Positions 118 through 63,898 of a stretch of 64,000 nucleotides of DNA are shown piece after piece (the stretch's first letter is position 1; every line of letters starts with the position of its first letter). The stretch is taken from IMG/VR virus record IMGVR_UViG_3300045988_096244. One strand, written 5' to 3'. Position numbers and translations under genes: made by a program. The notes beneath the pieces were generated by a model that saw only the letters and a list, made by a program, of their open reading frames with translations, was not told where the DNA came from and did no database searches. The stretch comes from a virus.

Positions 118-750
118 ATGGCCGAAGTAAAACAGAACGGTATAGTTGTCAATCCGTCGACAGGTTCTGGTGATACTACTCTCCAAGTAAAAGCTGAAAC
201 CGCCAATCGCGGTAACCGTGTAGCTCAAACTGCAACCTTCGAAGTAGAAGGTACTGGTGTTGCTAAGAAGCAACAGTTCGTAGCAAAACATCTTCCTGCA
301 GCTGAGTTTATCCAGTTCGATAACAAGAGTCCTGCGGTAGACAAGGGTGGTGGTACTATTACCTTAATAGGTAAGTCCAACTCCCAGAAGATTACCTTCT
401 CGAAAGGTACTGGAGATATCATCGATGCCAATATCGCGGCAATCAAGTTCACTGCAAACGGAGCCGAAGCTACGAGCGGTACTGCTATATCGGGTGACCC
501 GGGAGCAAAAGCAAAGTATAGCTTCAGCTTAACTCTGACTGCAGCAGAGAACGAAACCATCGAAGCCCGTACACAGCAGATTATTGCAACGGCAAACGGT
601 GGTCAGAGGGCAACGGCCACTCTGAACCAGACAGCTGGTGACCCATTCATCGAAGTTACACCGACCTCCATCGATGTGCCTCAGGATGGTTCGGCAGTTC
701 AGGTCACTGTGGACACCAACACTACCTTCACAGTTACTCCAAAAGCATAG
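118..750 (+). CDS. virion-associated protein made of Ig-like (BACON/Big-like) beta-sandwich repeats; possible head decoration protein
   Basis: 210-aa ORF with repeated short beta-strand segments (TLQVKAET.., TITLIGKSN.., AVQVTVDTN..TFTV); C/G-ending codon preference like the sheath gene; lies at the head/tail junction. Confidence 0.45.
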   Translation: MAEVKQNGIVVNPSTGSGDTTLQVKAETANRGNRVAQTATFEVEGTGVAKKQQFVAKHLPAAEFIQFDNKSPAVDKGGGTITLIGKSNSQKITFSKGTGDIIDANIAAIKFTANGAEATSGTAISGDPGAKAKYSFSLTLTAAENETIEARTQQIIATANGGQRATATLNQTAGDPFIEVTPTSIDVPQDGSAVQVTVDTNTTFTVTPKA

Positions 751-47727: not shown

Positions 47728-48657
47728 ATGGAACGACATCAAGAATTGGCTTGGGACTGTTTGACCGAGCCCGAGAAGAATAGCCTGATGTTTATTCAGG
47801 GCAGAGGACTATCAACTTGGGAAGCTGGAGAAATTCTCAAGATGTCTCATTACAAATATCTGGAACTAAAGGCCAGGGCAGAAAAATTCTTCAAACTATT
47901 CTCTGACTACTTTGAACTTCATCCATCATTAGTAAATCCCCAATCTCCAATAGAACCAAGGTTCAGGGACTACCTATTTGGAGCTATGGTTAAAAGGCTA
48001 CCAAAGGAGGAAGCAAAGATACATTCAGGAGATTCATCTTGGTTGTTAACTTCTATAACAAACCCAAGAATCATAAAGAATATGAAAAGGCTGAAAGAAT
48101 CAGAGAATAAGTGGGATAAAGACCTCTATGCTCTGATTCTTGAGTTTGATAGATGGAACAACTATCGAATAATGCCTCGTGTATTACAAGCTCCTACAGC
48201 ATATAAGAGAAGGTCAACTAAGAAGGATAAGGTATACTTATCTTACCTTCATCGAATACCTGACTTTAAGATAAGGCAATTGATTACTGAGTATTGGAAG
48301 AACGGTCCTTCCGGTAGGAGGTATTTCACAGCTATAGTATCAGATGAACTTTTCCCAGAAGAGGGTTATGGGGTGATGCCAATTAAGAGAGAGGATGATG
48401 TTATTAAGGCTGTTACTGATTTAAGGATGTATATATTCGAGAGTCAGCCTATTGCCGATACCTTTGGATTTTTGGTTACAAGGTACTTTGAAAAAACGGT
48501 GGATAGTAAAGGGGGCTTGAAGTTCTGGAAGGAGTACAGGGAGGTTATCCAGAAAGCTATTAACTACAAATCAATAAATAACATGGATTTTACTTGTGAG
48601 ACTCTGGATACTGCCTATAAATTACGCCGGAAAAGAACCACTAAATCTAACTCTTAG
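47728..48657 (+). CDS. protein with sigma-70 region-4 / LuxR-like HTH at the N-terminus; putative transcription regulator
   Basis: LTEPEKNSLMFIQGRGLSTWEAGEILKMSHYKYLELKARAEKFF. Confidence 0.4.
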   Translation: MERHQELAWDCLTEPEKNSLMFIQGRGLSTWEAGEILKMSHYKYLELKARAEKFFKLFSDYFELHPSLVNPQSPIEPRFRDYLFGAMVKRLPKEEAKIHSGDSSWLLTSITNPRIIKNMKRLKESENKWDKDLYALILEFDRWNNYRIMPRVLQAPTAYKRRSTKKDKVYLSYLHRIPDFKIRQLITEYWKNGPSGRRYFTAIVSDELFPEEGYGVMPIKREDDVIKAVTDLRMYIFESQPIADTFGFLVTRYFEKTVDSKGGLKFWKEYREVIQKAINYKSINNMDFTCETLDTAYKLRRKRTTKSNS

Positions 48658-48745: not shown

Positions 48746-49312
48746 ATGCGCAAAAGTAAGAAAAAGGACAAAAGACCGTTAAAGCTTAACAAGGAAAAGC
48801 TTAAGGTCATGGGAAGTGGGTTAGAAAATATGACCTACAAGGACATGAAAAGAAGAGCAGTTGCTCTCGGCATGCCTTTCCCAGATGCTTGTTCAGCAGA
48901 TTACAATGGACTGGCATCATGGATTCACCACTCAGAAAATAAGCCGGATAACTCCCTTATTGATGAGTATGATAAGTGGATGGACCAGCAACTAGAACTT
49001 ACGGGTTATGCAAAGGACGATCCGATGAGAAACTATCAACTCAATCTAGGGTTCATTGGAGAAGATGCAGTAACCAAGCAAAAGAAAACTAAGAGGGTGA
49101 AAGGGTTGGAGAAACCTAAAAAACCTAAGAAAGAGAAGGATGATAACGGTCTCTGGAAAGGAACCAAGAAATCCTATGTATTCGAATTAACCTACAAAGG
49201 TTTGTCAATCGACCGTATTACTAGAAGAGTGCAAAAGAAGTTTCCTGATGCCAAGGAGAAATCCATTCAGCAATGGTATCGGGCAGCATTACGTAAACAA
49301 AAGAAAGAGTAG
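48746..49312 (+). CDS. Lys-rich hypothetical protein
   Basis: 188-aa ORF behind a promoter; KKKDKRPLKLNKEKLK, KKTKRVKGLEKPKKPKKEKD. Confidence 0.55.
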   Translation: MRKSKKKDKRPLKLNKEKLKVMGSGLENMTYKDMKRRAVALGMPFPDACSADYNGLASWIHHSENKPDNSLIDEYDKWMDQQLELTGYAKDDPMRNYQLNLGFIGEDAVTKQKKTKRVKGLEKPKKPKKEKDDNGLWKGTKKSYVFELTYKGLSIDRITRRVQKKFPDAKEKSIQQWYRAALRKQKKE

Positions 49313-50143: not shown

Positions 50144-50573
50144 TTTAACCTGGGCTCAAATTAAAGTAGCCCTTGCATATAAAGCCATAACTAAACGTTC
50201 TGCTATCAGTTCTATCAGGTGGACTAAAAGACATTGGGATGAATATCAAAAGGCAGTACTACATAGGTTAGGTGGAATGCCTTTGGTAAGAAGAAGGTTA
50301 AATGAGAAGTATATTCTCAAAGAACTATTATCACAGGGTTTTGTTCTCAGGTCAGAGTTCCCTATGAAAATGAAATCTGGATGGTATGCTTACTTGGTAA
50401 CTAACCAAACGGTATGTGGAGAACACTATATTTATCCTGAACACTTTGCTCATGATTATAGGGCAGGTAGAAAGGGTTACAGGGATATCCATACTGCTCT
50501 GAACTCTGGAATAGGACAAGAAGGATATACGAGAATCTATTATACTGCATATAAAAACGGAATAGCGAAATGA
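50028..50573 (+). CDS. hypothetical protein (5' boundary uncertain; the first 116 nt overlap the previous gene)
   Basis: 181-aa ORF; the only in-frame ATG near the 5' end lies deep inside 49316..50143. Confidence 0.4.
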   Translation: MEQKNIELYSSLFRKSLLSYRRLRRLSRKERRLFTKKSDLTWAQIKVALAYKAITKRSAISSIRWTKRHWDEYQKAVLHRLGGMPLVRRRLNEKYILKELLSQGFVLRSEFPMKMKSGWYAYLVTNQTVCGEHYIYPEHFAHDYRAGRKGYRDIHTALNSGIGQEGYTRIYYTAYKNGIAK

Positions 50574-50830
50574 CAGTAGTAAATAAAAGGGAGCCAGAAA
50601 ATCCCTGGGATGGTATAAAACTCATAGTGGGTATAAAAAAATACTATACCGAAACAGGTAATGCAATAGACGATACCTTCACCATAGAAGGTGAACCTTT
50701 CGAAGTAAAAGACCAAAACGAATTTACTCAGAAAGTAGAAGCTATCAGGGATAAAAACGTATTCTTGAAAGCAATGGCGGTCCAAGAAAACAAGGAGATA
50801 TATACTCAAAAGTTTATCACGAAACTATAA
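50570..50830 (+). CDS. hypothetical protein
   Basis: 86-aa ORF, ATGA overlap with the previous stop. Confidence 0.5.
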   Translation: MTVVNKREPENPWDGIKLIVGIKKYYTETGNAIDDTFTIEGEPFEVKDQNEFTQKVEAIRDKNVFLKAMAVQENKEIYTQKFITKL

Positions 50831-50872
50831 TCAATCAAACATTTTTCAAACAACCTTTTAATTCATTAAATT

Positions 50873-51373
50873 ATGGCAAAGAAAAAAGCTGCAGTAAAAG
50901 AGGTAGAACGCAAGGTTCTCTCTAACGGGGTTATCCTCATCAAATACGATGACGGTTCCTATGCACTCCTGACTCCCATTTCGGCAGATGATGCCGAGGA
51001 TATCTTCGGTGGGGAAGCCGAGGATTCGGAGGACGAAGATGACGACGAGGATGAAGATGAGTCGGATGACGAAGATTCCGATGAAGATGAAGACGAGGAG
51101 GATTCCGATGACGAAAGCGACGAGGACGGAGATGAGGAAGACGACGAGGATGAGGATGAAGAGGATGACGAGGTAACCCCTGAGGACCTGGCCGGCATGG
51201 ACTTCGAAGCTCTAGAGGACCTCTGCGACGACAAAGAACTCGAAACTGACCCCGACGAATTCGACGAGGAGGACGTGGAGAAACTCCGCAAGGCGATTGC
51301 CAAGGAGCTGGGCATCACTCTGCCCAAGGCAAAGGCCGATTCCAAGAAGGACACCAAGAAAAAGAAAAAGTAA
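50873..51373 (+). CDS. extremely acidic protein (about 60-aa poly-Asp/Glu/Ser tract) with Lys-rich termini
   Basis: MAKKKAAVKE..; EDSEDEDDDEDEDESDDEDSDEDEDEEDSDDESDEDGDEEDDEDEDEEDDE; ..KKDTKKKKK; G/C-ending codons. Confidence 0.7.
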   Translation: MAKKKAAVKEVERKVLSNGVILIKYDDGSYALLTPISADDAEDIFGGEAEDSEDEDDDEDEDESDDEDSDEDEDEEDSDDESDEDGDEEDDEDEDEEDDEVTPEDLAGMDFEALEDLCDDKELETDPDEFDEEDVEKLRKAIAKELGITLPKAKADSKKDTKKKKK

Positions 51374-51507
51374 GGGTCCTTCCGACTATAACAATTCCCG
51401 AGGGCTGCTATACTCTTAATTAGCTGAAGATAATACCTGGTAAAGATGGCATCAAGTTCATTCAGGTCAGCCCTCTTTTTAATCAAAAACCTTAATCAAT
51501 AAAAGAT

Positions 51508-51939
51508 ATGGCAACCAAGAAGAAAGACCAAGCAGCTGAGGCAAAGGATGCAGCAAAAGCAGAAACGAAAAAAGGCGGTAAGAAAGAACTGACCGCAGAA
51601 GAGAAGAAGGCCAAACGAGAGGCCATGAAGGAGCGACTCAAGAACCGGGCACCTGGTCAGCGACCCAACAGCAAACAGTGCGATATCATCGACCTGGGCG
51701 GTGGCAACGTTGCAAAGACCTTCGCCATGAACGTACGGAAGTACGGCGTTCTCATCACCTCAGTGGTTACCGACAAGGACGGCAAGGTGATTGCTGTCTC
51801 GAATGCAACCATCCCCGGAGTATCCGTCAAGTCCAAGAAGGAGCACGGCACGCTGGTCCCGAAGATGCCCGGCATGGGTAAGAAAGGGAAGGCAGCCGAG
51901 GCAGAGGATGATGAAGATGACGAAGACGATGAGGAATAG
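51508..51939 (+). CDS. Lys-rich N-terminus, small globular core, acidic tail protein
   Basis: MATKKKDQAAEAKDAAKAETKKGGKK.., core ..VLITSVVTDKDGKVIAVSNATIPGV.., tail AEAEDDEDDEDDEE; strong G/C-ending codon use. Confidence 0.7.
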   Translation: MATKKKDQAAEAKDAAKAETKKGGKKELTAEEKKAKREAMKERLKNRAPGQRPNSKQCDIIDLGGGNVAKTFAMNVRKYGVLITSVVTDKDGKVIAVSNATIPGVSVKSKKEHGTLVPKMPGMGKKGKAAEAEDDEDDEDDEE

Positions 51940-51987
51940 GCACACGACGCAGCCTAACCAATTCGGACATAGTTTTTGAGTCATACA

Positions 51988-52030
51988 GGGGAGGTCATCC
52001 AAATTAAAGGGTGGACCTCCCCACTTTGTA
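51988..52030 (+). terminator. rho-independent terminator
   Basis: ggggaggtc 51988-51996 / gacctcccc 52014-52022, then actttgtat. Confidence 0.6.
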
Positions 52031-52037
52031 TAGGTAT

Positions 52038-52256
52038 ATGCAAGAAGACGATGAAATTATATACCTGGCATTATGTAATCAATTGCAATCATATCAGCTA
52101 TTGCTAGAGGAAGAAAAAGACCTCACCGAAGAAAATAGACTGATGGCTGAGTATATTATCTCTAGAACTGAGCAATTGATTGAAATATATGCCCAGAAAA
52201 TAGGAAGTGACACCTTTATTCAAAGACCCCAATGGGACAATTTAACTCCTCCGTAA
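52038..52256 (+). CDS. hypothetical protein
   Basis: Start moved to ATG 52038 (MQEDDEIIYL..) because the GTG at 52011 lies inside the terminator stem. Confidence 0.5.
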   Translation: MQEDDEIIYLALCNQLQSYQLLLEEEKDLTEENRLMAEYIISRTEQLIEIYAQKIGSDTFIQRPQWDNLTPP

Positions 52257-52612
52257 AAGGGTTGATATATCGGATTAAGGATATGACCCGATTGATTCAG
52301 GACATTGATGCTCAACTATCAGTGCCAGGATTATCCCCCGGAAAAAGGCAATCTTTAATCAAAGATAAGACCCTGAAATTAGGTAAGGTCAAGGCATTAG
52401 TCAAAAGGGTAGAAGACCTGGCTAATGGAAATATCTTAACCATAACCTTTGAAAACAAAGGCACTGGGGAAAGATATAGGATTATATACACCAACATCTC
52501 TCAGGATGATGCCATTGCCCATCTGAAATTGATGGCATATCTTCGGGGGATAGAAATAATCATCTCAGAGATAAAGGAAGTGCAGACCAAAAACTCCATG
52601 ACCAAACTATAA
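52232..52612 (+). CDS. hypothetical protein
   Basis: 126-aa ORF; alternative start ATG 52283. Confidence 0.5.
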   Translation: MGQFNSSVKGLIYRIKDMTRLIQDIDAQLSVPGLSPGKRQSLIKDKTLKLGKVKALVKRVEDLANGNILTITFENKGTGERYRIIYTNISQDDAIAHLKLMAYLRGIEIIISEIKEVQTKNSMTKL

Positions 52613-52659
52613 ACATGCAAAGGTAATTCAAACTCATTTTTTTAATCAACTCAACAACA

Positions 52660-53295
52660 ATGGCAAAGGACATTAGCAAGAAAGACCTGGCAGCAAAGAA
52701 AGCTCGCCGGGCTCAGAAGGAAATGCTGGCCTACATGGAAGAGAACAATCTCGACCCCAAGAAAGACTGGACAGGCCACAAGAAACACGGTAAGAAAATC
52801 CAGGCATGGATTGACGTTATCAACCTCGGAAACAAGAAGGCCCGGGAACTCAACGAGGAAAAGGCCATCGAGAAGTCCGAAAAGAAAAAGAACAAGAAGC
52901 CGGAAGCCCATCCCAAGAAGGAAAAGGTAACCAGCACTCCGAATGCCTACGACTATCCTACGGTAGATGGCAAGGAGATGACTTCGGACCAGAAAAAGAA
53001 GTATCGCCAGAAGATGCGTACTCTTCTGAAGACGATGTCGAAGGAGAAGGCCGAAGCAGAAGGAAAGAAATATGCTGCAGAGCTGGCTTCAGGTTCGACT
53101 GCTGCTCCAAAGAAGGAGAAGGCCGAAGCAGAAGGAAAGAAATATGCTGCAGAGCTGGCTTCAGGTTCGACTGCTGCTCCAAAGAAGGAGAAGGCAAAGA
53201 AGGAAGAGCCGGCCAAGGAAAAGAAGGCTGAGAAACCTGCCAAGGAAGGCAAGGACAAGAAAAAGAAAAATAAGGTAAAGAAAGAGGAGGATTAA
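52660..53295 (+). CDS. Lys-rich protein containing a perfect 24-aa tandem duplication
   Basis: KEKAEAEGKKYAAELASGSTAAPK x2; C-terminal KKEEPAKEKKAEKPAKEGKDKKKKNKVKKEED. Confidence 0.7.
   Translation: MAKDISKKDLAAKKARRAQKEMLAYMEENNLDPKKDWTGHKKHGKKIQAWIDVINLGNKKARELNEEKAIEKSEKKKNKKPEAHPKKEKVTSTPNAYDYPTVDGKEMTSDQKKKYRQKMRTLLKTMSKEKAEAEGKKYAAELASGSTAAPKKEKAEAEGKKYAAELASGSTAAPKKEKAKKEEPAKEKKAEKPAKEGKDKKKKNKVKKEED
53041..53195 (+). repeat. 72-nt perfect tandem direct repeat (2 copies plus an 11-nt third start) inside the CDS
   Basis: 53041-53112 is identical to 53113-53184; 53185-53195 repeats the first 11 nt. Confidence 0.9.
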
Positions 53296-53325
53296 ACCGA
53301 TAGGCAATCAGTGAAACTTCTCATG

Positions 53326-53359
53326 CCCCGAATCCACGAAGGGTTCGGGGTTCTTTGTT
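53326..53359 (+). terminator. rho-independent terminator
   Basis: ccccgaatcc 53326-53335 / gggttcgggg 53341-53350 (one G-U pair), loop acgaa, then ttctttgtt. Confidence 0.75.
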
Positions 53360-53387
53360 GAATATACCTATACAACACCACTGAATT

Positions 53388-53430
53388 TAATTTGTATATT
53401 ATAATAATAAGTATTATATTTGCATAACGA
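53388..53430 (+). promoter_or_regulatory. Bacteroidota-type promoter TTTG-N20-TATATTTGCATAACGAAA
   Basis: TTTG 53391-53394; tatatttg 53415-53422; 21 nt before ATG 53443. Confidence 0.6.
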
Positions 53431-53442
53431 AATATTATAAAG

Positions 53443-53886
53443 ATGAAAATCAACCGAGGCTGTATTAAACTGAAATTGCAAAGGCATCTATCTGCCCAGG
53501 AAATATGGAATCAGATTATGGATGTGCATATTCAGGCGCTGGAATCCCTTTTAGAGGATAAGAGCTTAGATAACTGGAAAATTATATTCCCCTGCTATGG
53601 AACTTCTCTAGAAGCGGTAGAATCAATGGCAAGGGAATATATAGAAGCCTTCAAAAGGGTTCAAGGCAATACGTTCAACGAAAGATATGAGGATGTTGAA
53701 ACTATGTTGGTAACCGGATTAAACCAAAGATGGTTCAATACTATCATGAGTACACTCTATATGATGGAAGAGGACTTAATGGAAATGAGTTCTGATTCCG
53801 TCTTCACTCTCTGGGATATTTTCTTCACATGCCAGGCACTGCGTAAAGAAAATAATGTGGTAGCTATGGGACTTAACACTTTCTAG
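53443..53886 (+). CDS. hypothetical protein
   Basis: 147-aa ORF behind a promoter. Confidence 0.55.
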   Translation: MKINRGCIKLKLQRHLSAQEIWNQIMDVHIQALESLLEDKSLDNWKIIFPCYGTSLEAVESMAREYIEAFKRVQGNTFNERYEDVETMLVTGLNQRWFNTIMSTLYMMEEDLMEMSSDSVFTLWDIFFTCQALRKENNVVAMGLNTF

Positions 53887-53903
53887 CTTAAAGGACAGTA
53901 AAG

Positions 53904-54131
53904 ATGAAAGACACAATTAAAATCACAGGCTCATCAAGGATTGAAAAGGTTATCTTTGATGACGAGACAAGGGACATTGAGATAACCTTCAAAGGGGAAA
54001 AGGTATACCGGTATAATTCGGTATCTGAATTCGACTTCAGAATGTTCAAAGAGGATATCCAAAACGGAGAATCCGTTGGGAAGTCCTTCGAGAAAAGAAT
54101 CAGGAATAAGTACGCAGGAGTAAGATTATGA
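53904..54131 (+). CDS. KTSC-domain protein
   Basis: SSRIEKVIFDDETRDIEITFKGEKVYRYNSVSEFDFRMFKE..SVGKSFEKRIRNKY fits the KTSC pattern (S..i..v.Yd...L.v.F..G..Y.Y..V.......S.G..f...Ir). Confidence 0.5.
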   Translation: MKDTIKITGSSRIEKVIFDDETRDIEITFKGEKVYRYNSVSEFDFRMFKEDIQNGESVGKSFEKRIRNKYAGVRL

Positions 54132-54547
54132 AAAGGTATTACACCCCAGACGGGGAACCCGATGAAGCTAAGACCACTTGGGTAGCAGTAAAGAAAGGAA
54201 TCATAGGGGTATCAGTATTCTGTGCAATATGCGTATTGTGGGATACTAAGACAGTTCCCCCTACTCCCGATGCTACTCCTCACTGGAAAAACTGGGATGA
54301 GTCAAGACACTTATCCGAGGTAAAGAGCTATGACTACAAAAACGGTATCATTCACTATCGGGATGAATCTACCGGAGAGAGACCCATGGAGTTAAATCTT
54401 CATGGGTCTTCTGGCAGTTATGGTTCTGGTATAACTCTGCAAGTATCAGGTGCATCAGTACACTTGGATATGGATGCAGGAGAATTGATGGACCAGTTAA
54501 CTGAGGATGTAGATTTTTACGAATACTTCGAACGAAATATGGATTGA
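54128..54547 (+). CDS. hypothetical membrane-anchored protein
   Basis: N-terminal TM span GIIGVSVFCAICVLW; ATGA overlap. Confidence 0.5.
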   Translation: MKRYYTPDGEPDEAKTTWVAVKKGIIGVSVFCAICVLWDTKTVPPTPDATPHWKNWDESRHLSEVKSYDYKNGIIHYRDESTGERPMELNLHGSSGSYGSGITLQVSGASVHLDMDAGELMDQLTEDVDFYEYFERNMD

Positions 54548-54548
54548 T

Positions 54549-54869
54549 ATGGCAGGTCGGATTAAATTCAAAGTAAACAAGTACGTTCACGGTTCAAGAA
54601 GCAAGGATGTATTTGAATTCAAGCCTAAAGCTCAGATTATATTCGAGGGTAAGAGGATTGGTCATATAATTGACACAGAGGTATACTTCCACATAAGTGT
54701 AAAAGACCCTATCCTAAACTACATACCTGAATTGTGGGGAAAATTCTCTACTCATCAGGAAGCAAAGGAAGCAGTAATAACTCAGGCAGAATATATCTGG
54801 AAAACACTAAACATTTATCACCCACTTAAAACATTAGCACCAAACTACGGATTATGGGAAAAGAAGTAA
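54549..54869 (+). CDS. hypothetical protein
   Basis: 106-aa ORF. Confidence 0.5.
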   Translation: MAGRIKFKVNKYVHGSRSKDVFEFKPKAQIIFEGKRIGHIIDTEVYFHISVKDPILNYIPELWGKFSTHQEAKEAVITQAEYIWKTLNIYHPLKTLAPNYGLWEKK

Positions 54870-55180
54870 AGAAACCGACAAACAGCTGGGTATGGAAAAA
54901 GATATTCGGTGTAACCCTATTGGGATGGATGAATATCCTGATATTCCAATGGCTATTCATCCGGATATCTTATAATTGGGTATATGTAGACCCTGACAAA
55001 GATGAAGATGCTAGAACAGATGATTTCTGGGATGATGAGAAACAGCAGTTTGTTGCAAAAACTTTCTACTACTATGCCATTATCGGGTGTATTATACCTC
55101 TAACGGGGTGGTGGGGAGACTATGTAATGCCGTTCAAATTCAAAGGTCGGTTAACTAAGGTAAAAGAATACTACGAATGA
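54854..55180 (+). CDS. hypothetical membrane protein
   Basis: Hydrophobic spans IFGVTLLGWMNILIFQWLFI and YYYAIIGCIIPLTGWW. Confidence 0.5.
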   Translation: MGKEVKKPTNSWVWKKIFGVTLLGWMNILIFQWLFIRISYNWVYVDPDKDEDARTDDFWDDEKQQFVAKTFYYYAIIGCIIPLTGWWGDYVMPFKFKGRLTKVKEYYE

Positions 55181-55410
55181 GTACAGTAGACTTCAAAGCT
55201 GCTTGTGCAGCTCATAGGAAATGTTGCCCATATAAGGCAACTCCATCTACAAAATGTAAAGTGGAGGACAAGGATAAGGAGAATTTATATGAGAGGTATA
55301 AAGGTAAATGTGGGGCTAATGTAGAAACTCCAGATGGTTTATGCCCGGTAAAAGATTGCTACTATATGGCTAAGTTCAAAAGAACACTCAAGAAGTTATC
55401 CGAGAAGTAA
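55177..55410 (+). CDS. small Cys-rich protein
   Basis: 77 aa with 7 Cys (CAAHRKCCPY, KCKVED, KCG, CPVKDC). Confidence 0.5.
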   Translation: MSTVDFKAACAAHRKCCPYKATPSTKCKVEDKDKENLYERYKGKCGANVETPDGLCPVKDCYYMAKFKRTLKKLSEK

Positions 55411-55589
55411 TGACACCAGTAGCTGTGGCTAAAACTTATAATGAGCTTATGGGACCTGAATCTCAGGTTAAATCCGTAGAGATACAAGATGATGGTCATA
55501 GGCAAACCCTCTATGTAAAGATGACACCCATACGTAGGGATAACTCACTCTCATCAATTAACATTGCCTTGAACGTACCAGAAAAGTAG
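55410..55589 (+). CDS. small hypothetical protein (59 aa)
   Basis: MTPVAVAKTYNELMGPESQ..; its ATG shares one base with the previous TAA; below the track cutoff. Confidence 0.4.
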   Translation: MTPVAVAKTYNELMGPESQVKSVEIQDDGHRQTLYVKMTPIRRDNSLSSINIALNVPEK

Positions 55590-55596
55590 TTGCAAA

Positions 55597-55640
55597 ATTA
55601 TTTGCGGGGATAAATATTTATATCTATATTTGCATAAACA
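55597..55640 (+). promoter_or_regulatory. Bacteroidota-type promoter (TTTG-N20-TATATTTGCATAA)
   Basis: TTTG 55601-55604; tatatttg 55625-55632. Confidence 0.55.
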
Positions 55641-55708
55641 ATAAAAGGGAAAGCCACAAGAGGTTAACACACAGAAGCCAAGAACACAACCTCAAAGAAA
55701 TTGATAAA

Positions 55709-55754
55709 AATATTTGCATATATATAGAAAAGTTCCCTTATATTTGCATTAGGA
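55709..55754 (+). promoter_or_regulatory. second tandem promoter (TTTG-N22-TATATTTGCAT)
   Basis: TTTG 55713-55716; tatatttg 55739-55746; 64 nt before ATG 55810. Confidence 0.5.
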
Positions 55755-55809
55755 AAAAGAAATAATAAAACACTTTTAATTTATTGTAAAACCTTTAATA
55801 TTGTTAGCC

Positions 55810-56265
55810 ATGAAAAAGAACAAGAAAAATCAGGCTCAGAAAACCAAAAAGACCAACCTGGTAGAGGGAATCAACAACCTCATCGAAGAGAAGACCCAGA
55901 AGGTCGAGAAATCCAAAAAGGATCTGAAGGCCGAGGCTAAAAAGGAGGAAACTCCTGAAGCGGCCAAAGAAAAGAAGGTCAAGAAGACTCAGAAAGAGAA
56001 ACTGGTCGATAAGACCAAGAAAAAGGCCGAAGCCAACCTCGTCGAAGAGGTGGTAACGAAACGGGAAGTCAAGTACATCTATCCGGCAGACTGCGAGGAC
56101 ACTCTTTCCCGGAAAAAGTTCCGGCAGACGGTCCGAAACAGGATTCATCAGCTGGAGCTGGCAATGCTCCGAATCGAGAACCAGGACTCCAAGGAGTTCA
56201 AGAAAGCAAAGAAGGAGTACCTCGAGTACAAGAACCAATTCGTCAAGGAATCCGTTGCAATCTAA
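55810..56265 (+). CDS. Lys/Glu-rich protein
   Basis: MKKNKKNQAQKTKKTN..KKEETPEAAKEKKVKKTQKEK..; C-part YIYPADCEDTLSRKKFRQTVRNR resembles YDYPTVDGKEMTSDQKKKYRQKMR in 52660..53295; start set at ATG 55810. Confidence 0.65.
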   Translation: MKKNKKNQAQKTKKTNLVEGINNLIEEKTQKVEKSKKDLKAEAKKEETPEAAKEKKVKKTQKEKLVDKTKKKAEANLVEEVVTKREVKYIYPADCEDTLSRKKFRQTVRNRIHQLELAMLRIENQDSKEFKKAKKEYLEYKNQFVKESVAI

Positions 56266-56347
56266 TCTTTCATAGTAGGAGAGGGGTACCGGGATAAGTA
56301 AGGTCCGGGCCCCTTAGTATAATAACACTTTAACGATATGAAAGATT

Positions 56348-56650
56348 ATGGTTGTCGGCTTACCTGAGAAAGCAATTCAGAAAGTAGACAAGGAATTGCT
56401 AGAATTACACAAAGAAGTTCTTAAGTCATATCTCACACAACGGAGTCTAAAGCACAAGTACCAAAAGAAATTCTTTAAGATATACGACCACTACATTACA
56501 GAGAAGAACATAAGAAGGTTTTTCTTCCGTTCTGCTAAGCTGTTTGTATATGCTTTAGTAACGGACCGATTGGATGAGATTGAAGACTATGTACCCGTAA
56601 AAGATAAGAAAAAACATGTTTCCCGAAAGAGTAAAAAGCGTAACGCTTGA
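56348..56650 (+). CDS. hypothetical protein
   Basis: 100-aa ORF. Confidence 0.5.
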   Translation: MVVGLPEKAIQKVDKELLELHKEVLKSYLTQRSLKHKYQKKFFKIYDHYITEKNIRRFFFRSAKLFVYALVTDRLDEIEDYVPVKDKKKHVSRKSKKRNA

Positions 56651-57969: not shown

Positions 57970-58812
57970 ATGAAAGAACAAAAGATAGTTCCAAGGTTTC
58001 CAAGAGGAATGGGAGTAACCCAATTAGCTCTACAGGCTAATGCTGGAGATGATGAAGCTCTCAAGAATCTGACCAAGTTCATTATCCATACCTGGATTGT
58101 CAACAACGGGAAATTATGGGCAAAGGTTTATTCCGTAAATGAACTCGCGGATTTCTTGAAATGTGAACCAGCAATTATTCAGATGCAAATGAAACAAACG
58201 TTTCTAGACAACGGTTTATTTGACCGTAGCAAGATGAATGAGATTGCTGATTCTCTTATGGGAGCTTGCATATCATGGGCACTTGAAGACCGTATGGAAG
58301 TAAGCCAGCAGGTTCAAATACTCAGGGATTCTCAGGGCGGAAGATATGCTCCATTCATCACCTCAGAAGTCAATAAGGCCCTTGGATTGAAACAGCAATC
58401 TACAACTTCTCTTCAGAGTTTAGTAAGGGCAGTAACTGGAGGGGGTACCGTGAATATCTTTGCTCAACAGAACAATCAATTCAATAATGGTGCCCAAGAA
58501 GAGCAGACTTTAACTAGAGATGAAGCCATGGAAATGATTCAAAGGGAGTTGGCTGACAAGGGTGGTATAAAGGAAATTGAATATGTAGAGAACCAATATG
58601 ACTTCAAAGAACTACCTGTTGTAGTTGCAACCAAACAAGATGGCAACAGGGGTGAGAAAGAAGGATTAACCCTTAAAAACGGAGAACTCGATAGCGTAAC
58701 AGGGGACTACCATGGTGCCTTAAAAGTTTTTGACGAAGACCATCACCAAATCCGACGAGAGATAGAAGAAGGAATAGCTTACGAAGAAGTAGACCCAGAA
58801 ATCCAAGATTAG
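57970..58812 (+). CDS. hypothetical protein (280 aa)
   Basis: Long ORF; possible N-terminal HTH (VNELADFLKCEPAIIQ); no confident family call. Confidence 0.5.
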   Translation: MKEQKIVPRFPRGMGVTQLALQANAGDDEALKNLTKFIIHTWIVNNGKLWAKVYSVNELADFLKCEPAIIQMQMKQTFLDNGLFDRSKMNEIADSLMGACISWALEDRMEVSQQVQILRDSQGGRYAPFITSEVNKALGLKQQSTTSLQSLVRAVTGGGTVNIFAQQNNQFNNGAQEEQTLTRDEAMEMIQRELADKGGIKEIEYVENQYDFKELPVVVATKQDGNRGEKEGLTLKNGELDSVTGDYHGALKVFDEDHHQIRREIEEGIAYEEVDPEIQD

Positions 58813-58821
58813 CCATTGATT

Positions 58822-58866
58822 TTTATTTGCATATTTGAATTATAATTATTAAATTTGTATAAACAA
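58822..58866 (+). promoter_or_regulatory. Bacteroidota-type promoter (TTATTTGCATA-N-TAAATTTGTATAA)
   Basis: TTTG 58826-58829; taaatttg 58850-58857; 24 nt before ATG 58881. Confidence 0.55.
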
Positions 58867-58880
58867 AAAATCAAAAGGCT

Positions 58881-60103: not shown

Positions 60104-60148
60104 TTTTATTTGCATATTAAAAATATTATTGCTATATTTGTATAAAGA
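60104..60148 (+). promoter_or_regulatory. Bacteroidota-type promoter (TTATTTGCATA-N-TATATTTGTATAA)
   Basis: TTTG 60108-60111; tatatttg 60132-60139. Confidence 0.6.
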
Positions 60149-60174
60149 TAAAAATAAACCTTAAATATAATACC

Positions 60175-60390: not shown

Positions 60391-60621
60391 ATGGCACAGC
60401 AGAAAAGGTACAAATTGCTCATTTGGTTCTATCTCCACAATCACCTTCACAAAAGTATTCATGCTGCACATAGCATGGAGGTAGAACTAACCCGGAAAAC
60501 TGAAGTTAGTGAATGGGTAGATGAGAATGATGAGAGTATTGCAAAAGCATACCTCATTGACCGGGTTAAAGATACCCGAGAAACGGTAATAGAAAGAAAT
60601 ATTGAACGAACAATATACTAA
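60391..60621 (+). CDS. hypothetical protein
   Basis: 76-aa ORF. Confidence 0.5.
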   Translation: MAQQKRYKLLIWFYLHNHLHKSIHAAHSMEVELTRKTEVSEWVDENDESIAKAYLIDRVKDTRETVIERNIERTIY

Positions 60622-60632
60622 AACTAAAGATT

Positions 60633-60851
60633 ATGAGTTACACAGTAGAAGACCTGATTGGAGCTCTAGAAGAAATGGACCCTCAGGCACCAGTAATGGT
60701 AGCAGTACAACCCATATGGCCATTTGAACACAGTATCACTGGTGTTATCAATGCTCAGAATGGGACGGTATACCTTGCATCAAAACAGGAAGGTTATTTA
60801 CCCCCAGAAGCTAAAGAAGCTTTCGAAGAAAACGGTATCCCTTTTTTCTAA
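60633..60851 (+). CDS. hypothetical protein
   Basis: 72-aa ORF. Confidence 0.5.
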   Translation: MSYTVEDLIGALEEMDPQAPVMVAVQPIWPFEHSITGVINAQNGTVYLASKQEGYLPPEAKEAFEENGIPFF

Positions 60852-60869
60852 CCTCATCTGACCTCTGAT

Positions 60870-60914
60870 TTATATTTGCAAATATAGATTAAATTCATTA
60901 TATTTGTAATATAG
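60870..60914 (+). promoter_or_regulatory. Bacteroidota-type promoter (TATATTTGCAAA-N-TATATTTGTAATA)
   Basis: TTTG 60875-60878; tatatttg 60899-60906; 31 nt before ATG 60937. Confidence 0.6.
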
Positions 60915-60936
60915 AAAAGAAATAAAATCGAATATT

Positions 60937-61293
60937 ATGAAAGATTACAAAAAGGTATTGCTGGATGGGTTAAGGAAGTCGAGCAATGTTCAAGAAGAAG
61001 AGAGGGATTGCATTAAAGAAGCAATTAAAGAAACCTACCTTGGTATGGTAAAAGAGTTGGATGCCCGATTAGGGTTAGAACTCTTTGATTATCGGGTAGA
61101 AGTAAGATACTACTCTGATGGAATCCCGGAAAGGTTCAAACATACTCTCTGGGTTAAATTCTCGGATGAGACCATGCCCAAGATGTCTTTCAGAGGGGCA
61201 ATGCAACAGGTGGTATCTATCCTCTCAACTGGAGAGGATGAAGTAAAGATTATCAGTCATAACACTGGACTCAAAATCGAGATAGTAGCATGA
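60937..61293 (+). CDS. hypothetical protein
   Basis: 118-aa ORF. Confidence 0.5.
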   Translation: MKDYKKVLLDGLRKSSNVQEEERDCIKEAIKETYLGMVKELDARLGLELFDYRVEVRYYSDGIPERFKHTLWVKFSDETMPKMSFRGAMQQVVSILSTGEDEVKIISHNTGLKIEIVA

Positions 61294-61478
61294 GTGCATT
61301 CAATAAGATACAAAGAGAATACAACTGGGTATGCAAGCATATCAAAGGTCCTTTGTATAGAATAAAGATGCAAGAGCTATACAATGAGGCTAATAAAGCT
61401 ATCCTCGACCCAAAGTTAACTCCAGAACAGAAATTAAAACTAATCGGTATCAGAGATACATTAAAGACAAAACTATGA
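61290..61478 (+). CDS. hypothetical protein
   Basis: 62-aa ORF, ATGA overlap. Confidence 0.45.
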   Translation: MSAFNKIQREYNWVCKHIKGPLYRIKMQELYNEANKAILDPKLTPEQKLKLIGIRDTLKTKL

Positions 61479-61765
61479 AAAAGAAAGAAGAACAAGGGTG
61501 CTTAAGGCCCCTACTGATAGCTATCGTATTAGTATTGGTAGCGACGATTTGGTACCAGATATCCTACCAAAGTGAGGAAAAGAAAGAGCCCGAGACAAGG
61601 CAATTAGTAAATCCCGACGGGAGCCTAAAATTTGAAGCAGTTCAAAGATTGGCTCCCGATTATATTGATAGCCTCAAAAGAGCCGGTGAAATTGAGAGAT
61701 GGTTAAAAGAACACCCTCAGCAAAACCTTAATATTCATATAACCATCGAAGACGAACGCTGGTAA
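61475..61765 (+). CDS. hypothetical membrane-anchored protein
   Basis: N-terminal TM span LLIAIVLVLVATIWYQI; ATGA overlap. Confidence 0.5.
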   Translation: MKKKEEQGCLRPLLIAIVLVLVATIWYQISYQSEEKKEPETRQLVNPDGSLKFEAVQRLAPDYIDSLKRAGEIERWLKEHPQQNLNIHITIEDERW

Positions 61766-61771
61766 AGGCCG

Positions 61772-61790
61772 TTAATATTTGTATAAAGAG
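61772..61790 (+). promoter_or_regulatory. possible weak promoter (-7-like AATATTTGTATAA only)
   Basis: aatatttg 61774-61781; no TTTG box about 20 nt upstream. Confidence 0.3.
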
Positions 61791-61821
61791 AAATAAATAT
61801 AAACCATAAATTTAATAAGCC

Positions 61822-62043
61822 ATGATTAAACAAACTCATAAACCTATTCAATTAACCAAATCAATGTTAATTAATATACTTAGAGATATGGAGGCTAAAC
61901 ACTTAAAAAGTGCTACCATATACGACTATGATTCAGAGGAACATGTAATCCTATCAATAGAGGAGATTAAATACTTAATCGACTTACCTCAACAGAATTA
62001 CCGTATACTCCCCGCAGAGTACAACCCTAATAAACTCAGCTAA
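61822..62043 (+). CDS. hypothetical protein
   Basis: 73-aa ORF. Confidence 0.5.
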   Translation: MIKQTHKPIQLTKSMLINILRDMEAKHLKSATIYDYDSEEHVILSIEEIKYLIDLPQQNYRILPAEYNPNKLS

Positions 62044-62045
62044 TC

Positions 62046-62204
62046 ATGAAAACACAATCAGATCTTCATTTATACCTCTTGAAGAAAGTTCACGGATGGT
62101 GCAAAAGACAAGGCATGACAGACCCCCGAAATGTATTTCCTTCAATAGGAGGATGCACCTCATTTTGCAACGGAGAACGCTTCCAACAAAAGAACAGAAA
62201 ATGA
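62046..62204 (+). CDS. small hypothetical protein (52 aa)
   Basis: MKTQSDLHLYLLKKVHGWCKRQG..; starts 2 nt after the previous stop and ends in an ATGA overlap with the next start. Confidence 0.4.
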   Translation: MKTQSDLHLYLLKKVHGWCKRQGMTDPRNVFPSIGGCTSFCNGERFQQKNRK

Positions 62205-62533
62205 AACAAGAAGAATCTAGAGAGTTAAGGAATCTCTCCATGAATCAACTCAATGCAAAGTTATCTGAACTCTATAAGGAACTTCCGAGAAGGAATCCTA
62301 AGTACTCTTTCGAAAGACCTTACAGGAATCATCTCCTAAGGCAAATCAACCAAATCAAATACGAACAAACCCTTAAAGGAAAGGGGTTAAGGTCACAAGG
62401 AGTCTGGATAGAATCAGGATACACTCACCAAGGAACCAAGTCAGGAAGATTCTCTTCAGGATATCACTCCTCAGAATTATCCCTATCCAACCCCCCAAAA
62501 GAAGTTCTACCCCCAACACAAATAAAACCATGA
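62201..62533 (+). CDS. hypothetical protein (110 aa)
   Basis: Start set at ATG 62201 (MKQEESRELRNLSMNQL..) rather than track start 62096, which overlaps the small upstream ORF. Confidence 0.45.
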   Translation: MKQEESRELRNLSMNQLNAKLSELYKELPRRNPKYSFERPYRNHLLRQINQIKYEQTLKGKGLRSQGVWIESGYTHQGTKSGRFSSGYHSSELSLSNPPKEVLPPTQIKP

Positions 62534-62679
62534 AAAGAAAACCTAAAACCATATCCAAGGAAAAGGCCATAGTCATAGCCTCCAACCATAACAACCTCCC
62601 AATCCAAATCGCAAAGGGATATACAGAATCCGAACTAAGGGAAGTATTAAGGCATCTGAACCTAAAGCCAGGCTTCTAA
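62530..62679 (+). CDS. small hypothetical protein (49 aa)
   Basis: MKRKPKTISKEKAIVIASNHNNLPIQIAKGYTESELREVLRHLNLKPGF; ATGA overlap. Confidence 0.4.
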   Translation: MKRKPKTISKEKAIVIASNHNNLPIQIAKGYTESELREVLRHLNLKPGF

Positions 62680-63893: not shown

Positions 63894-63898
63894 TAAAA

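What the first reader, a model, noticed from the sequence alone, without database searches (positions are those of the whole stretch)
50873..56265. Set of extremely charged proteins (poly-acidic, Lys-rich, Lys-rich with acidic tail) with structural-gene-like codon bias
Four ORFs have extreme composition. 50873 has a ~60-aa uninterrupted D/E/S tract between Lys-rich ends. 51508 has a KKxxAK-rich N-terminus, a small core and the tail AEAEDDEDDEDDEE. 52660 and 55810 are K/E-rich and share a Y.YP..(6-8)..S..KK.(Y/F)RQ..R segment. By eye they use G/C-ending codons (gac, gag, aag, ggc, ctg, atc) like the sheath, tube, 118..750 and SSB genes, unlike their AT-rich neighbours. This suggests very high expression. 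Three of them lack the early TTTG/TATATTTG promoter, and individual hairpin terminators follow 51508 (51988) and 52660 (53326). The combination resembles histone/HMG-like DNA condensers with an acidic chaperone or DNA mimic. Candidate roles are internal virion or DNA-packaging-counterion proteins, or anti-restriction DNA mimicry.
Basis: partly seen in the sequence, partly recalled or inferred. Interest (0 to 1): 0.65.

Follow-up and report, generated by a model that had tools for sequence, protein, structure and literature searches.

The report
Conserved hyper-charged phage protein quartet
Four small, extremely charged proteins (one poly-acidic, three lysine-rich) with capsid-protein-level codon optimisation form an ancient, conserved but completely uncharacterised gene set in the "dark" region of a widespread family of Bacteroidota phages from the human gut and the sea.

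Summary
The four ORFs (50873, 51508, 52660, 55810) are the most codon-biased genes in the window. GC3 is 0.59-0.69 against 0.36-0.40 expected from amino-acid composition (z 6-7.3). With K/E/D/R codons excluded, z is still 4.5-8.3. Their codon preferences correlate with those of sheath/tube/SSB (r=0.79). In a relative's complete genome the 51508 homologue equals the major capsid protein. All four families occur, in the same order, in 70-78 of 78 related phage loci and in a 78.6-kb marine phage. The motif shared by 52660 and 55810 (KYxYP...RKxFRxxxR) is genuine: it is in 77/78 and 69/70 members and in 0/2929 other ORFs, and it evolves in concert. Short ordered segments are far more conserved than neighbouring genes, whereas the charged tails vary freely. 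55810 sits behind tandem host-type promoters; the other three lack them; hairpins follow all four. No Pfam, PHROG, NCBIfam, PDB or Foldseek relative exists, and no cultured phage carries them. Function is inferred only. The most likely reading is abundant intracellular nucleic-acid-coating polycations with a polyacidic chaperone or competitor. Virion cargo is the main rival. The lead is new and experimentally attractive, but the mechanism is untested.

The parts
50873..51373 (+). 'Acidic' protein, 166 aa, net -54. Short K-rich N-terminus, small beta element (NGVILIKYDDGS), ~53-aa poly-D/E/S tract, highly conserved helical C-terminal domain (MDFEALEDLCDDKELETDPDEFDEEDVEKLRKAIAKELGI), K-run tail.
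   Evidence: Family present in 77/78 loci and in marine L082 (E=4.5e-37). C-terminal domain 76% mean pairwise identity. Longest acidic run 2-101 aa over the 66 distinct loci, including truncated ORFs; about 30-70 aa in the full-length members listed. GC3 z=6.1.
51508..51939 (+). 'Core' protein, 143 aa. Disordered K/A-rich N-terminus, helix, invariant GQRPNSKQxD, six-stranded beta domain with KKGHG, PGMGK, then a disordered acidic tail.
   Evidence: ~200 homologues; alignment A1; AF2 pLDDT ~88-91 for residues 56-118. No PDB fold match. 95.5% identical to the MT121964 homologue. GC3 z=6.6 here and 6.9 in MT121964, against MCP 7.2.
52660..53295 (+). 'K3' protein, 211 aa, net +25. Helical N-domain (LxxYxxxNxLDPxKDW..HGKKI), motif YDYPxxDGxxMxxxxKKKYRxxxR, K/E/P-rich disordered tail ending KKEED.
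   Evidence: 247 homologues; A2. AF2 helices 7-28, 44-78, 109-125, 128-143, tail disordered. No fold match. GC3 z=6.0.
55810..56265 (+). 'K4' protein, 151 aa, net +17. K-rich disordered N-half, conserved module REVKYIYPxDCxDTLSRKKFRQxVRN, C-terminal helices.
   Evidence: 736 word-index hits; 140 clusters at 50% identity. A3 invariant columns Y91 P92 R101 K102 R105 R109. GC3 z=7.3, the highest in the window.
52035..52612 (+). Two small genes (about 73 and 126 aa, overlapping at 52232-52256) always found between core and K3. Uncharged, ordinary codon usage.
   Evidence: Present in 77 and 78 of 78 loci. z = -0.7 and 1.8. No family hits.
50570..50830 (+). Small gene (86 aa) immediately upstream of the acidic gene; part of the syntenic block in many relatives.
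   Evidence: 42 loci by jackhmmer; a positional equivalent is present in the others.
51983..52031 (+). Hairpin terminator after the core gene.
   Evidence: dG -25.7 kcal/mol, z -3.6. A hairpin at this position is present in all divergent loci, with unrelated sequence.
53325..53351 (+). Intrinsic terminator (hairpin plus T-run) after K3.
   Evidence: dG -20.1, z -3.3; conserved position.
56281..56315 (+). GC-rich hairpin after K4 (no T-run).
   Evidence: dG -18.3, z -1.85; equivalent hairpins in relatives.
55596..55752 (+). Two tandem Bacteroidota-type promoters (-33 TTTG / -7 TAnnTTTG; -7 boxes at 55625 and 55739) upstream of K4. The first belongs to a ~55-nt early-promoter cassette family.
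   Evidence: TTTGCAT box ~50 nt upstream of K4 in L048, L056, L061 and L064 (TTTGTAT in L065), and TATATTTGTA in marine L082.
51488..51502 (+). AACCTTAATCAATAA leader element 20 nt upstream of the core ATG, identical to the 15-mer before the sheath gene (4794-4808). Variants lie at 50852-50862 (acidic), 55790-55799 (K4) and 52642-52649 (TTAATCAA, K3).
   Evidence: 6 of the 7 AACCTT+AAT sites in the window lie 12-21 nt upstream of a start codon.
53040..53195 (+). Perfect 72-bp x 2.2 tandem duplication inside K3 (adds 24 aa), private to this genome.
   Evidence: All the full-length homologues listed are about 170-209 aa, and none of those aligned has the duplication.

Best explanation
The four genes encode a conserved polyelectrolyte system made in very large amounts inside the infected cell. 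Three are lysine-rich polycations. K4 and K3 share one basic module (KYxYP...RKxFRxxxR). 'Core' combines a small beta domain and an H1-like K/A-rich arm with a self-competing acidic tail. These three most likely coat or condense a polyanion, probably DNA (phage or host), in a sequence-independent way, as phi29 p6, H1 or HMGB-type proteins do. The poly-D/E protein most likely acts as their chaperone, competitor or exchange factor, that is, as a polyanion that mimics nucleic acid. K4 is made first, by host RNA polymerase from tandem consensus promoters. The other three follow from non-host-type signals. SHOWN: the genes are real and anciently conserved; charge and disorder are extreme; codon optimisation is at capsid level; each gene has its own terminator; K4 has early promoters; K3 and K4 share a motif that evolves in concert; short ordered segments are under strong purifying selection while the charged tails drift. 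INFERRED: high protein abundance; nucleic-acid binding; interaction between the acidic and basic members; an intracellular rather than virion site of action.
For: Codon bias. The four genes exceed the sheath per codon, and the core homologue equals the MCP in MT121964. They avoid the codons read by the phage's own tRNAs (TTA 0/35, CCA 2/20), so they are tuned to the host tRNA pool. K4 lies behind two tandem consensus host promoters, an arrangement conserved in gut and marine lineages, and the genes sit in the early-promoter-rich region rather than the structural module. Architecture: disordered K/A-rich arms and an acidic tail flank a confident beta domain whose invariant residues are mostly basic (R52, K56, K78, K110, K111, H113). 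In K3 the basic half of the motif starts a confidently predicted helix. One motif in two proteins, with a clade-specific shared insertion, implies a common ligand. Ordered segments have 60-76% mean identity against 24-33% for neighbours, and the core is 95.5% identical to MT121964, equal to the tail tube. This points to a core, conserved partner rather than a fast-evolving host defence target. Net charges roughly cancel: -54 against +47 in the window, and -48.8 against +47.4 as family means. A separate canonical SSB gene exists at 39823.
Against: There is no homology or fold similarity to any DNA-binding, histone-like or chaperone family, so nucleic-acid binding rests on composition only. The charge of the acidic protein does not covary with that of the basic proteins across lineages (rho ~0), which argues against strict stoichiometric neutralisation. 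Three of the four genes share a leader element with the sheath gene, which would also fit late or structural co-regulation. The codon preferences are not identical to those of the structural genes (GGC/GTC/TCC/CGG rather than GGT/GTA/CGT), so part of the GC3 excess may reflect something other than translational selection. In some relatives the bias is weak (L053, L065, L082). No expression or proteomic data exist, and no cultured relative is known.
Confidence: 0.4

Rival explanations
1. Virion cargo. The proteins are packaged inside the capsid, as the basic internal proteins plus acidic internal peptides of T4 are. They would act as scaffold-like core components, packaged-DNA organisers, or proteins ejected with the DNA.
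For: Codon bias equals that of the MCP and sheath. Three of the four genes carry the AACCTT(T)AAT / TTAATCAA leader element also found before the sheath gene and the 818 gene. The phage has a prohead maturation protease (phrog_8158), so processed internal proteins are possible. From my own knowledge, T4 heads contain both basic internal proteins and acidic peptides, and T4 ip genes lie outside the head gene cluster.
Against: The genes lie ~30-50 kb from the head module, among early promoters. K4 is driven by consensus host-type promoters in all lineages examined. Per-codon bias exceeds that of the sheath and MCP, although internal proteins are usually sub-stoichiometric to the MCP. No capsid-targeting or cleavage signal could be defined. 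There are no PHROG 'head/internal protein' hits. A net-neutral set would not help neutralise DNA charge.
Confidence: 0.25
2. Host-takeover or anti-defence effectors. The poly-acidic protein is a DNA mimic that titrates host nucleoid proteins or restriction/defence nucleases (Ocr- or Arn-like in effect). The K-rich proteins coat and silence the host chromosome.
For: Location in the early region, and early promoters for K4. The extreme negative charge density of the 50873 product. The acidic tract length changes rapidly even among close relatives, as expected for a non-specific polyanion.
Against: The ordered segments are exceptionally conserved between gut and marine lineages that must infect very different hosts, which is unlike arms-race effectors. 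Known DNA mimics are folded proteins with patterned surface charge, not low-complexity tracts (own knowledge). No PADLOC- or anti-defence-related or Ocr/ArdA Pfam hit was found; PADLOC itself was not searched. Three of the four genes lack early promoters.
Confidence: 0.15
3. RNA- or ribosome-directed proteins. The K-rich proteins bind rRNA or mRNA (ribosomal-protein-like) and bias translation towards phage messages in a host that does not use Shine-Dalgarno pairing.
For: Composition resembles small basic ribosomal proteins. There are weak, non-significant resemblances to eL27 (E=1.1) and to long-helix ribosomal proteins in Foldseek (E>=3.9). From my own knowledge, phage-encoded bS21 is known in Bacteroidota phages.
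Against: The bS21 comparison failed (hhalign P=0.66). No Pfam or NCBIfam ribosomal family hit was found. All structural hits are far from significance.
Confidence: 0.07
4. The codon bias does not reflect expression. It would be a compositional side-effect (avoidance of A-runs in K/E-rich genes) or a trace of foreign origin, and the proteins would be ordinary low-abundance accessory proteins.
For: The four genes prefer G/C-ending codons more uniformly than the structural genes do (GGC, GTC, TCC, CGG). The bias is weak in some lineages.
Against: The bias persists when K/E/D/R codons are removed (pooled z=13.2) and correlates with the sheath/tube/SSB preferences (r=0.79, p=3e-12). It is maintained relative to each genome's own background in lineages with GC3 from 0.19 to 0.43, which rules out recent transfer. 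Terminators after each gene and strong purifying selection are not what one expects for dispensable accessory genes.
Confidence: 0.08

Closest known systems
Bacillus phage phi29 protein p6 (viral histone-like dsDNA-binding protein) - from my own knowledge, not tested here
   Same: A small, extremely abundant, early-expressed phage protein that coats phage DNA non-specifically, encoded outside the structural module. This is the same kind of role as proposed for core, K3 and K4.
   Different: No sequence or fold similarity was detected. Here there are three different polycations plus a dedicated polyacidic partner, with long disordered tails. DNA binding is untested.
T4 internal proteins IPI-III and acidic internal peptides of the T4 head - own knowledge
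   Same: A combination of abundant basic proteins and highly acidic polypeptides. The ip genes lie away from the head gene cluster, and a prohead protease is present in this phage too.
   Different: No homology. K4 has only host-type early promoters. The ordered segments are highly conserved, whereas T4-type IP loci are hypervariable. No capsid-targeting sequence could be identified.
Eukaryotic linker histone H1 / HMGB1 with nucleoplasmin/NPM1 or prothymosin-alpha type acidic chaperones - own knowledge
   Same: K/A/P-rich disordered arms (core N-terminus, K3 tail). A basic DNA-binding unit followed by an acidic auto-inhibitory tail (core, as in HMGB1). An acidic protein built as a small beta element, a long poly-D/E tract, a helical C-domain and a basic tail (an NPM1-like layout).
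   Different: No Pfam hits to linker histone, HMG-box, nucleoplasmin or Hc1. The folds have no PDB neighbour. The resemblance is in architecture and composition only.
DNA-mimic proteins (T7 Ocr, ArdA, T4 Arn) - own knowledge
   Same: Highly acidic phage proteins, expressed early and abundantly, that compete with DNA for DNA-binding proteins.
   Different: Known mimics are folded, with charges patterned like B-DNA. The 50873 product carries its charge in a low-complexity tract of variable length (2-101 aa across loci). There are no family hits.
SSB-type proteins with acidic C-tails (T4 gp32, T7 gp2.5) - own knowledge
   Same: The core protein has a basic nucleic-acid-binding-like body and a conserved acidic C-terminal tail.
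   Different: There is no OB fold by Foldseek, and the phage has a separate recognisable SSB at 39823 (phrog_1192).

Membership tests
Linker histone H1 / bacterial Hc1-like / HMG-box / HU-IHF nucleoid proteins | Significant match to the family's profile (winged-helix globular domain, Hc1, HMG-box or Bac_DNA_binding fold) | tested here: not met
   Pfam full-length and domain-level scans gave no such hit even at E<=10. NCBIfam gave none. Foldseek and PDB profile searches gave none.
Linker histone H1 / bacterial Hc1-like / HMG-box / HU-IHF nucleoid proteins | Sequence-independent DNA binding and compaction | not testable with these tools
   Requires EMSA, AFM or in-cell nucleoid imaging.
T4-type internal head proteins | Presence in purified virions; N-terminal capsid-targeting sequence removed by the prohead protease | not testable with these tools
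   No virion proteome exists for any relative. A prohead protease exists, but its cleavage motif is unknown.
T4-type internal head proteins | Sequence similarity to known internal/head protein families | tested here: not met
   PHROGs gave only a low-complexity hit to an unknown-function family for the acidic protein and nothing for the other three.
DNA-mimic anti-restriction proteins (Ocr, ArdA) | Profile or fold match to Ocr/ArdA; folded surface that mimics B-DNA | tested here: not met
   No Pfam or PHROG hit. The acidic charge lies in a low-complexity tract of variable length. The structure of the acidic protein was not modelled.
Ribosomal protein bS21 (phage-encoded forms known) | Profile similarity to Ribosomal_S21 | tested here: not met
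   hhalign of the K4 family against E. coli S21: P=0.66. No Pfam or NCBIfam hit.
SSB (OB-fold with acidic tail) | OB fold | tested here: not met
   Foldseek on the core model: no OB-fold hit of any significance (best E=0.18, a WRKY domain). A separate SSB gene is present.
Nucleoplasmin / NPM1-type acidic histone chaperones | Nucleoplasmin core domain profile match | tested here: not met
   Pfam scans of the full-length protein and of its N- and C-terminal segments gave nothing.
'Flandersviridae' (candidate phage family; placement of the window) | Collinear genome: structural block with contractile sheath, then DnaB/primase/PolA replication module, then a ~20 kb locus of unknown ORFs; Bacteroidales host; ~85 kb genome | tested here: inconclusive
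   The gene order matches, promoters are of Bacteroidota type, and relatives are 73-88 kb. No reference Flandersviridae genome was available for a TerL or PolA phylogeny.

The most novel reading that the evidence does not exclude
The four proteins form a heterotypic polyelectrolyte condensate (complex coacervate). In this reading an NPM1-like acidic scaffold (small beta element, poly-D/E tract, conserved helical domain, basic tail) and three multivalent polycations, two of which dock through the same KYxYP...RKxFRxxxR module, build a membraneless phage compartment that concentrates or shields phage DNA. This would be a protein-only 'viral factory' or chromatin in a mid-sized Bacteroidota phage, unrelated to the chimallin nucleus of jumbo phages.
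Probability: 0.15. Interest if true: 0.85.

Novelty: new variant of a known kind. Interest (0 to 1): 0.58.

Why it matters
Flandersviridae-like (Gubaphage-like) phages are among the most prevalent viruses of the human gut, yet about 20 kb of their genome has no assigned function (PMC8008677). This work picks out, inside that dark region, four genes whose codon usage, dedicated terminators, deep conservation (gut to ocean) and strong purifying selection mark them as probably the most abundant non-structural products of the phage. It also defines their conserved modules, giving concrete, clonable targets. If they turn out to be a phage-encoded chromatin- or condensate-like system with its own acidic chaperone, that would be a new way for tailed phages to organise or protect DNA. 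If they are virion cargo, it would be an unusual polyelectrolyte capsid content. Either way the result makes an open question, what the dark third of these genomes does, experimentally approachable without first culturing the phage.

Tried and rejected
1. Homology was exhausted without result. Searches run: Pfam on full-length proteins and on low-complexity-trimmed domains; PHROGs; NCBIfam; PDB sequence profiles for three families; Foldseek of AF2 models for core and K3 against PDB, and for core against BFVD; tblastn against 50,697 GenBank phages. Nothing was significant. The best structural hit was a WRKY beta-sheet domain at E=0.18.
2. bS21 relationship of the K4 module: rejected (hhalign P=0.66).
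3. Strict charge balancing between the acidic and basic members: the means nearly cancel, but there is no covariation (rho ~0), so it is not supported.
4. Codon bias as an artefact of Lys/Glu/Asp codons or A-run avoidance: rejected.
5. Recent horizontal acquisition from a GC-richer donor: rejected, because the excess is maintained relative to each lineage's own background.
6. Antisense ORFs (50959-51486, 52953-53258 and 55804-56238, minus strand): treated as by-products of stop-free reverse complements of GAN/AAR codons.
7. AACCTT(T)AAT as a pure late promoter: doubtful. In the K4 family it lies downstream of the host-type -7 box, that is, in the leader. Its role (leader/translation element or short-leader promoter) is unresolved.
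8. Locus retrieval with the divergent K4 alignment failed, and P0500 gave no viral locus.
9. Literature searches found no cultured relative, proteome or precedent.

Full report
WHAT IS THERE. The window is a phage genome fragment with all but one gene on the + strand. It has a contractile-tail structural block (sheath 4813-6687, tube 6714-7181, tape measure 8248-10335). A replication/recombination block follows (DnaB 21553, helicase 26090, PolA-type polymerase 34845, SSB 39823, UvsX 40684, SbcCD 43427/44740, RusA 46462). From ~47 kb onward there is a run of small unknown genes. This order matches the published description of the candidate family 'Flandersviridae'. [quoted passage not shown] The closest GenBank record is an unannotated 75.5-kb human-faecal phage, MT121964 (80.7% DNA identity over the region). 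No cultured phage is close (polymerase <=26% identical). The finding lies inside the dark locus.

OBSERVATION CHECK. The four ORFs exist as described. Their products have net charges of -54 (50873, 'acidic'), +5 (51508, 'core', with segregated charge: basic N-half, acidic tail), +25 (52660, 'K3') and +17 (55810, 'K4'). I computed, for every gene, the GC3 expected from its amino-acid composition under the window-wide synonymous usage. The four genes have GC3 of 0.59-0.69 against 0.36-0.40 expected (z = 6.1, 6.6, 6.0, 7.3). Only the sheath is comparable (z 6.3). SSB, 7277, 118..750 and the tube are at 2.4-3.4. The immediate neighbours range from -0.9 to 1.8, and most other genes in the window lie within about +/-2. 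With Lys/Glu/Asp/Arg codons removed the excess remains (z 6.6, 7.4, 4.5, 8.3; pooled 13.2). The direction of codon preference correlates with that of the sheath/tube/118/7277/SSB set (Pearson 0.79, p=3e-12). The match is not perfect: the four genes favour GGC, GTC, TCC and CGG, where the structural genes favour GGT, GTA and CGT. They almost never use TTA (0/35 Leu), ATA (0/22 Ile), AGA/AGG (1/18 Arg) or CCA (2/20 Pro). The phage carries tRNA-Leu(UAA), tRNA-Pro(UGG) and tRNA-Met at 33041-33520, so these genes appear tuned to the host tRNA pool. In the complete genome of MT121964 the two most biased genes are the major head protein (z 7.2; phrog_3922) and the core homologue (z 6.9, on a gene 2.6 times shorter).

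CONSERVATION. Using the core family (about 200 homologues, all unnamed, on 75-88-kb contigs) I fetched 78 related loci (97% down to 42% identity). The block [~80-aa gene]-acidic-core-[~70 aa]-[~125 aa]-K3 is present in 77-78 of the 78 loci, and K4 lies a few kb downstream in 70. The GC3 excess recurs relative to each genome's own background, which ranges from GC3 0.19 to 0.43. Examples are L064 (z 6.3, 5.1, 5.8), L066 (7.6, 4.0, 3.2, 7.5), L073 (6.8, 4.3, 3.0) and L079 (5.2, 5.6). It is weak in L053 and L065. This excludes recent import from a GC-richer donor. An exhaustive search with K4 found 140 clusters at 50% identity, many of them 80-140 aa. One of them led to a 78.6-kb marine phage contig (L082) that carries all four families in the same order. 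The scores there are: acidic E=4.5e-37; core hhalign probability 93%, E=2.8e-7; K3 1e-16; K4 6e-26. The quartet is therefore ancient. Between the window and MT121964 the ordered part of core is 95.5% identical, equal to the tail tube and above UvsX and DnaB. Across non-redundant family sets the ordered segments are much more conserved than the syntenic neighbours. Mean pairwise identities are 0.76 (acidic C-terminal domain), 0.76 (core helix plus GQRPNSKQ), 0.66 (K4 motif) and 0.60 (K3 motif), against 0.33 and 0.24 for the two small genes. The Lys-rich regions drift (0.29-0.44). The longest acidic run varies from 2 to 101 residues across the 66 distinct loci, including three truncated ORFs. 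Among the full-length members listed it is about 30-70 residues.

ANATOMY. Core: AF2 with a 28-sequence alignment gives disordered residues 1-24 and 128-143, a helix at 30-45, and a confident six-stranded beta domain at 56-118 (pLDDT ~88-91). The invariant residues are largely basic (R52, K56, K78, K110, K111, H113) within GQRPNSKQxD and KKGHG. K3: a confident helical core (helices 7-28, 44-78, 109-125, 128-143), in which the basic half of the motif starts helix 109-125. It has a disordered K/E/P tail and a near-invariant C-terminal KKEED. K4: a K-rich N-half, then REVKYIYPxDCxDTLSRKKFRQxVRN and C-terminal helices. The invariant columns across 23 divergent members are Y91, P92, R101, K102, R105 and R109. 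Acidic: a small beta element, the poly-D/E/S tract, then a near-invariant helical segment and a K-run. None of the models or profiles has a significant neighbour in PDB, BFVD, Pfam, PHROGs or NCBIfam.

THE SHARED MOTIF. BLASTP of the window pair alone is not significant (E=0.64). Profile-profile alignment picks out exactly the motif region (P=0.005; six control pairs give 0.27-0.71). The regular expression Y.YP.{5,22}[KR][KR].[YFWH]R.{3}R matches 77/78 K3, 69/70 K4 and 0/2929 other ORFs of the loci. In the L066/L068/L069 clade both proteins carry the same insertion (KYDYPQVKDEKTGKMRDMTSAEKKKYR and KYIYPLKEDEETGQMREMTKDEKKSWR), with pairwise E down to 1e-10. The K4 HMM also hits the marine K3 at 1e-6. 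The motif coincides with the invariant core of the whole K4 superfamily. Two otherwise different proteins therefore present one module that changes in concert. The simplest reading is a common ligand; gene conversion is the alternative.

EXPRESSION SIGNALS. Consensus Bacteroidota two-box promoters (TTTG ... TAnnTTTG), which form a ~55-nt repeated cassette, occur in intergenic DNA before 53443, K4 (two in tandem, -7 boxes at 55625 and 55739), 58881, 60391, 60937 and 63605. None occurs before acidic, core or K3. A host-type -7 box ~50 nt upstream of K4 is seen in the divergent gut loci L048, L056, L061, L064 and L065, and in the marine phage. Hairpins follow core (-25.7 kcal/mol, z -3.6), K3 (-20.1, z -3.3) and K4 (-18.3, z -1.85). 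The structure after the acidic gene is not better than shuffles in this window, but clear GC-rich hairpins follow all four genes in relatives, at conserved positions with unrelated sequences. A leader element AACCTT(T)AAT occurs 7 times on the + strand. Six of these lie 12-21 nt upstream of start codons (818, sheath, 23044, acidic, core, K4), and the sheath and core share the 15-mer AACCTTAATCAATAA. If sites fell at random, about 1.4% would land in such windows, so six of seven is far beyond chance (my calculation). In K4 the element lies downstream of the promoter, so it is at least partly a leader feature.

INTERPRETATION. What is shown: four real, ancient, strongly constrained genes whose every expression-related feature points to very high output. 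Their products are polyelectrolytes with small conserved interaction modules and freely drifting charged tails. What is inferred: the polycations bind nucleic acid and the polyanion binds or competes with them. I favour an intracellular, phi29-p6/H1/HMGB-like DNA-coating role with an acidic chaperone or competitor (confidence ~0.4). The reasons are K4's early promoters, the location in the early region, bias exceeding that of virion proteins, adaptation to the host tRNA pool, and conservation too strong for arms-race effectors. Virion cargo (~0.25) remains a serious rival because of the capsid-level bias and the leader element shared with the sheath. Host-takeover or DNA-mimic roles (~0.15), RNA or ribosome binding (~0.07) and 'bias is not expression' (~0.08) are less likely. 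The near cancellation of net charges (-54 against +47; family means -48.8 against +47.4) is notable, but there is no covariation across lineages, so I do not lean on it.

NOVELTY. None of the four families has a name, a domain, a structure or a cultured host anywhere in the resources searched. Abundant charged phage proteins are a known kind (p6, TF1, T4 IPs, Ocr). This particular four-part system, with a dedicated low-complexity polyanion and a module shared by two polycations, is a new variant. Its mechanism is untested.

Noticed in passing
window 806-815, 4794-4808, 23023-23031, 50852-50862, 51488-51502, 55790-55799 (also TTAATCAA at 52642): Leader element AACCTT(T)AAT. Six of its 7 + strand occurrences lie 12-21 nt upstream of start codons (genes 818, sheath, 23044, acidic, core, K4). 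The sheath and core genes share the 15-mer AACCTTAATCAATAA. It could be a translation-initiation/leader element in a host without Shine-Dalgarno use, or a short-leader phage promoter.
   Followed up: partly
window 53040-53195: Perfect 72-bp x 2.2 tandem duplication inside the K3 gene, adding 24 aa (KEKAEAEGKKYAAELASGSTAAPK). It is absent from all aligned homologues, so it is either a very recent duplication or an assembly artefact.
   Followed up: partly
window 55596-55650, 58821-58875, 60104-60158, 60870-60924, 63526-63580, 63849-63903; 63506-63562 = 63829-63885: Family of ~55-nt early-promoter cassettes (TTATTTGCAT-N19-TATATTTG). Two 57-nt copies, 323 bp apart near 63.5-63.9 kb, are 100% identical. 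They flank gene 63605 and follow a 925-nt non-coding gap (62679-63605), which may be a regulatory or terminal region of the genome.
   Followed up: partly
window 33041-33520: Three phage tRNA genes: Met(CAU), Pro(UGG) and Leu(UAA). They decode AT-rich codons (TTA, CCA) used by the bulk of phage genes but avoided by the four charged-protein genes and largely by the structural genes.
   Followed up: partly
window 43427-44743: The SbcD-like nuclease gene also carries an N-terminal HNH endonuclease region (PHROG hits to HNH at residues 8-219 and to SbcD at 125-397). This may be a fusion or a homing-endonuclease insertion.
   Followed up: no
L066, L068, L069 (K3 and K4 homologues): In one clade both K3 and K4 carry the same 6-8-residue insertion within the shared motif (…KDEKTGKMRDMT… / …KEDEETGQMREMT…). 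This indicates concerted evolution by co-adaptation to one partner or by gene conversion.
   Followed up: partly
window 1190-2341, 18846-20660 and 60391-62533 compared with MT121964: Gene 1190-2341 (383 aa) and the genes from 60391 to 62533 have no counterpart in MT121964. The 604-aa gene at 18846 is only 42% identical over half its length, making it a likely receptor-binding/host-range module. These are the variable parts of an otherwise 80-95% identical proteome.
   Followed up: no
window 47728-48657, 48746-49312, 56348-56650, 57970-58812: Four further 'dark-region' genes have detectable homologues in the marine phage L082 (27-35% identity). Like the quartet, they belong to an ancient conserved core of unknown function.
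   Followed up: no
window 50959-51486 (-), 52953-53258 (-), 55804-56238 (-): Long antisense ORFs (poly-Ser, or Leu/Phe-rich) overlap the charged-protein genes. They are explained as by-products, because the reverse complements of GAN/AAR codons contain no stop codons.
   Followed up: partly
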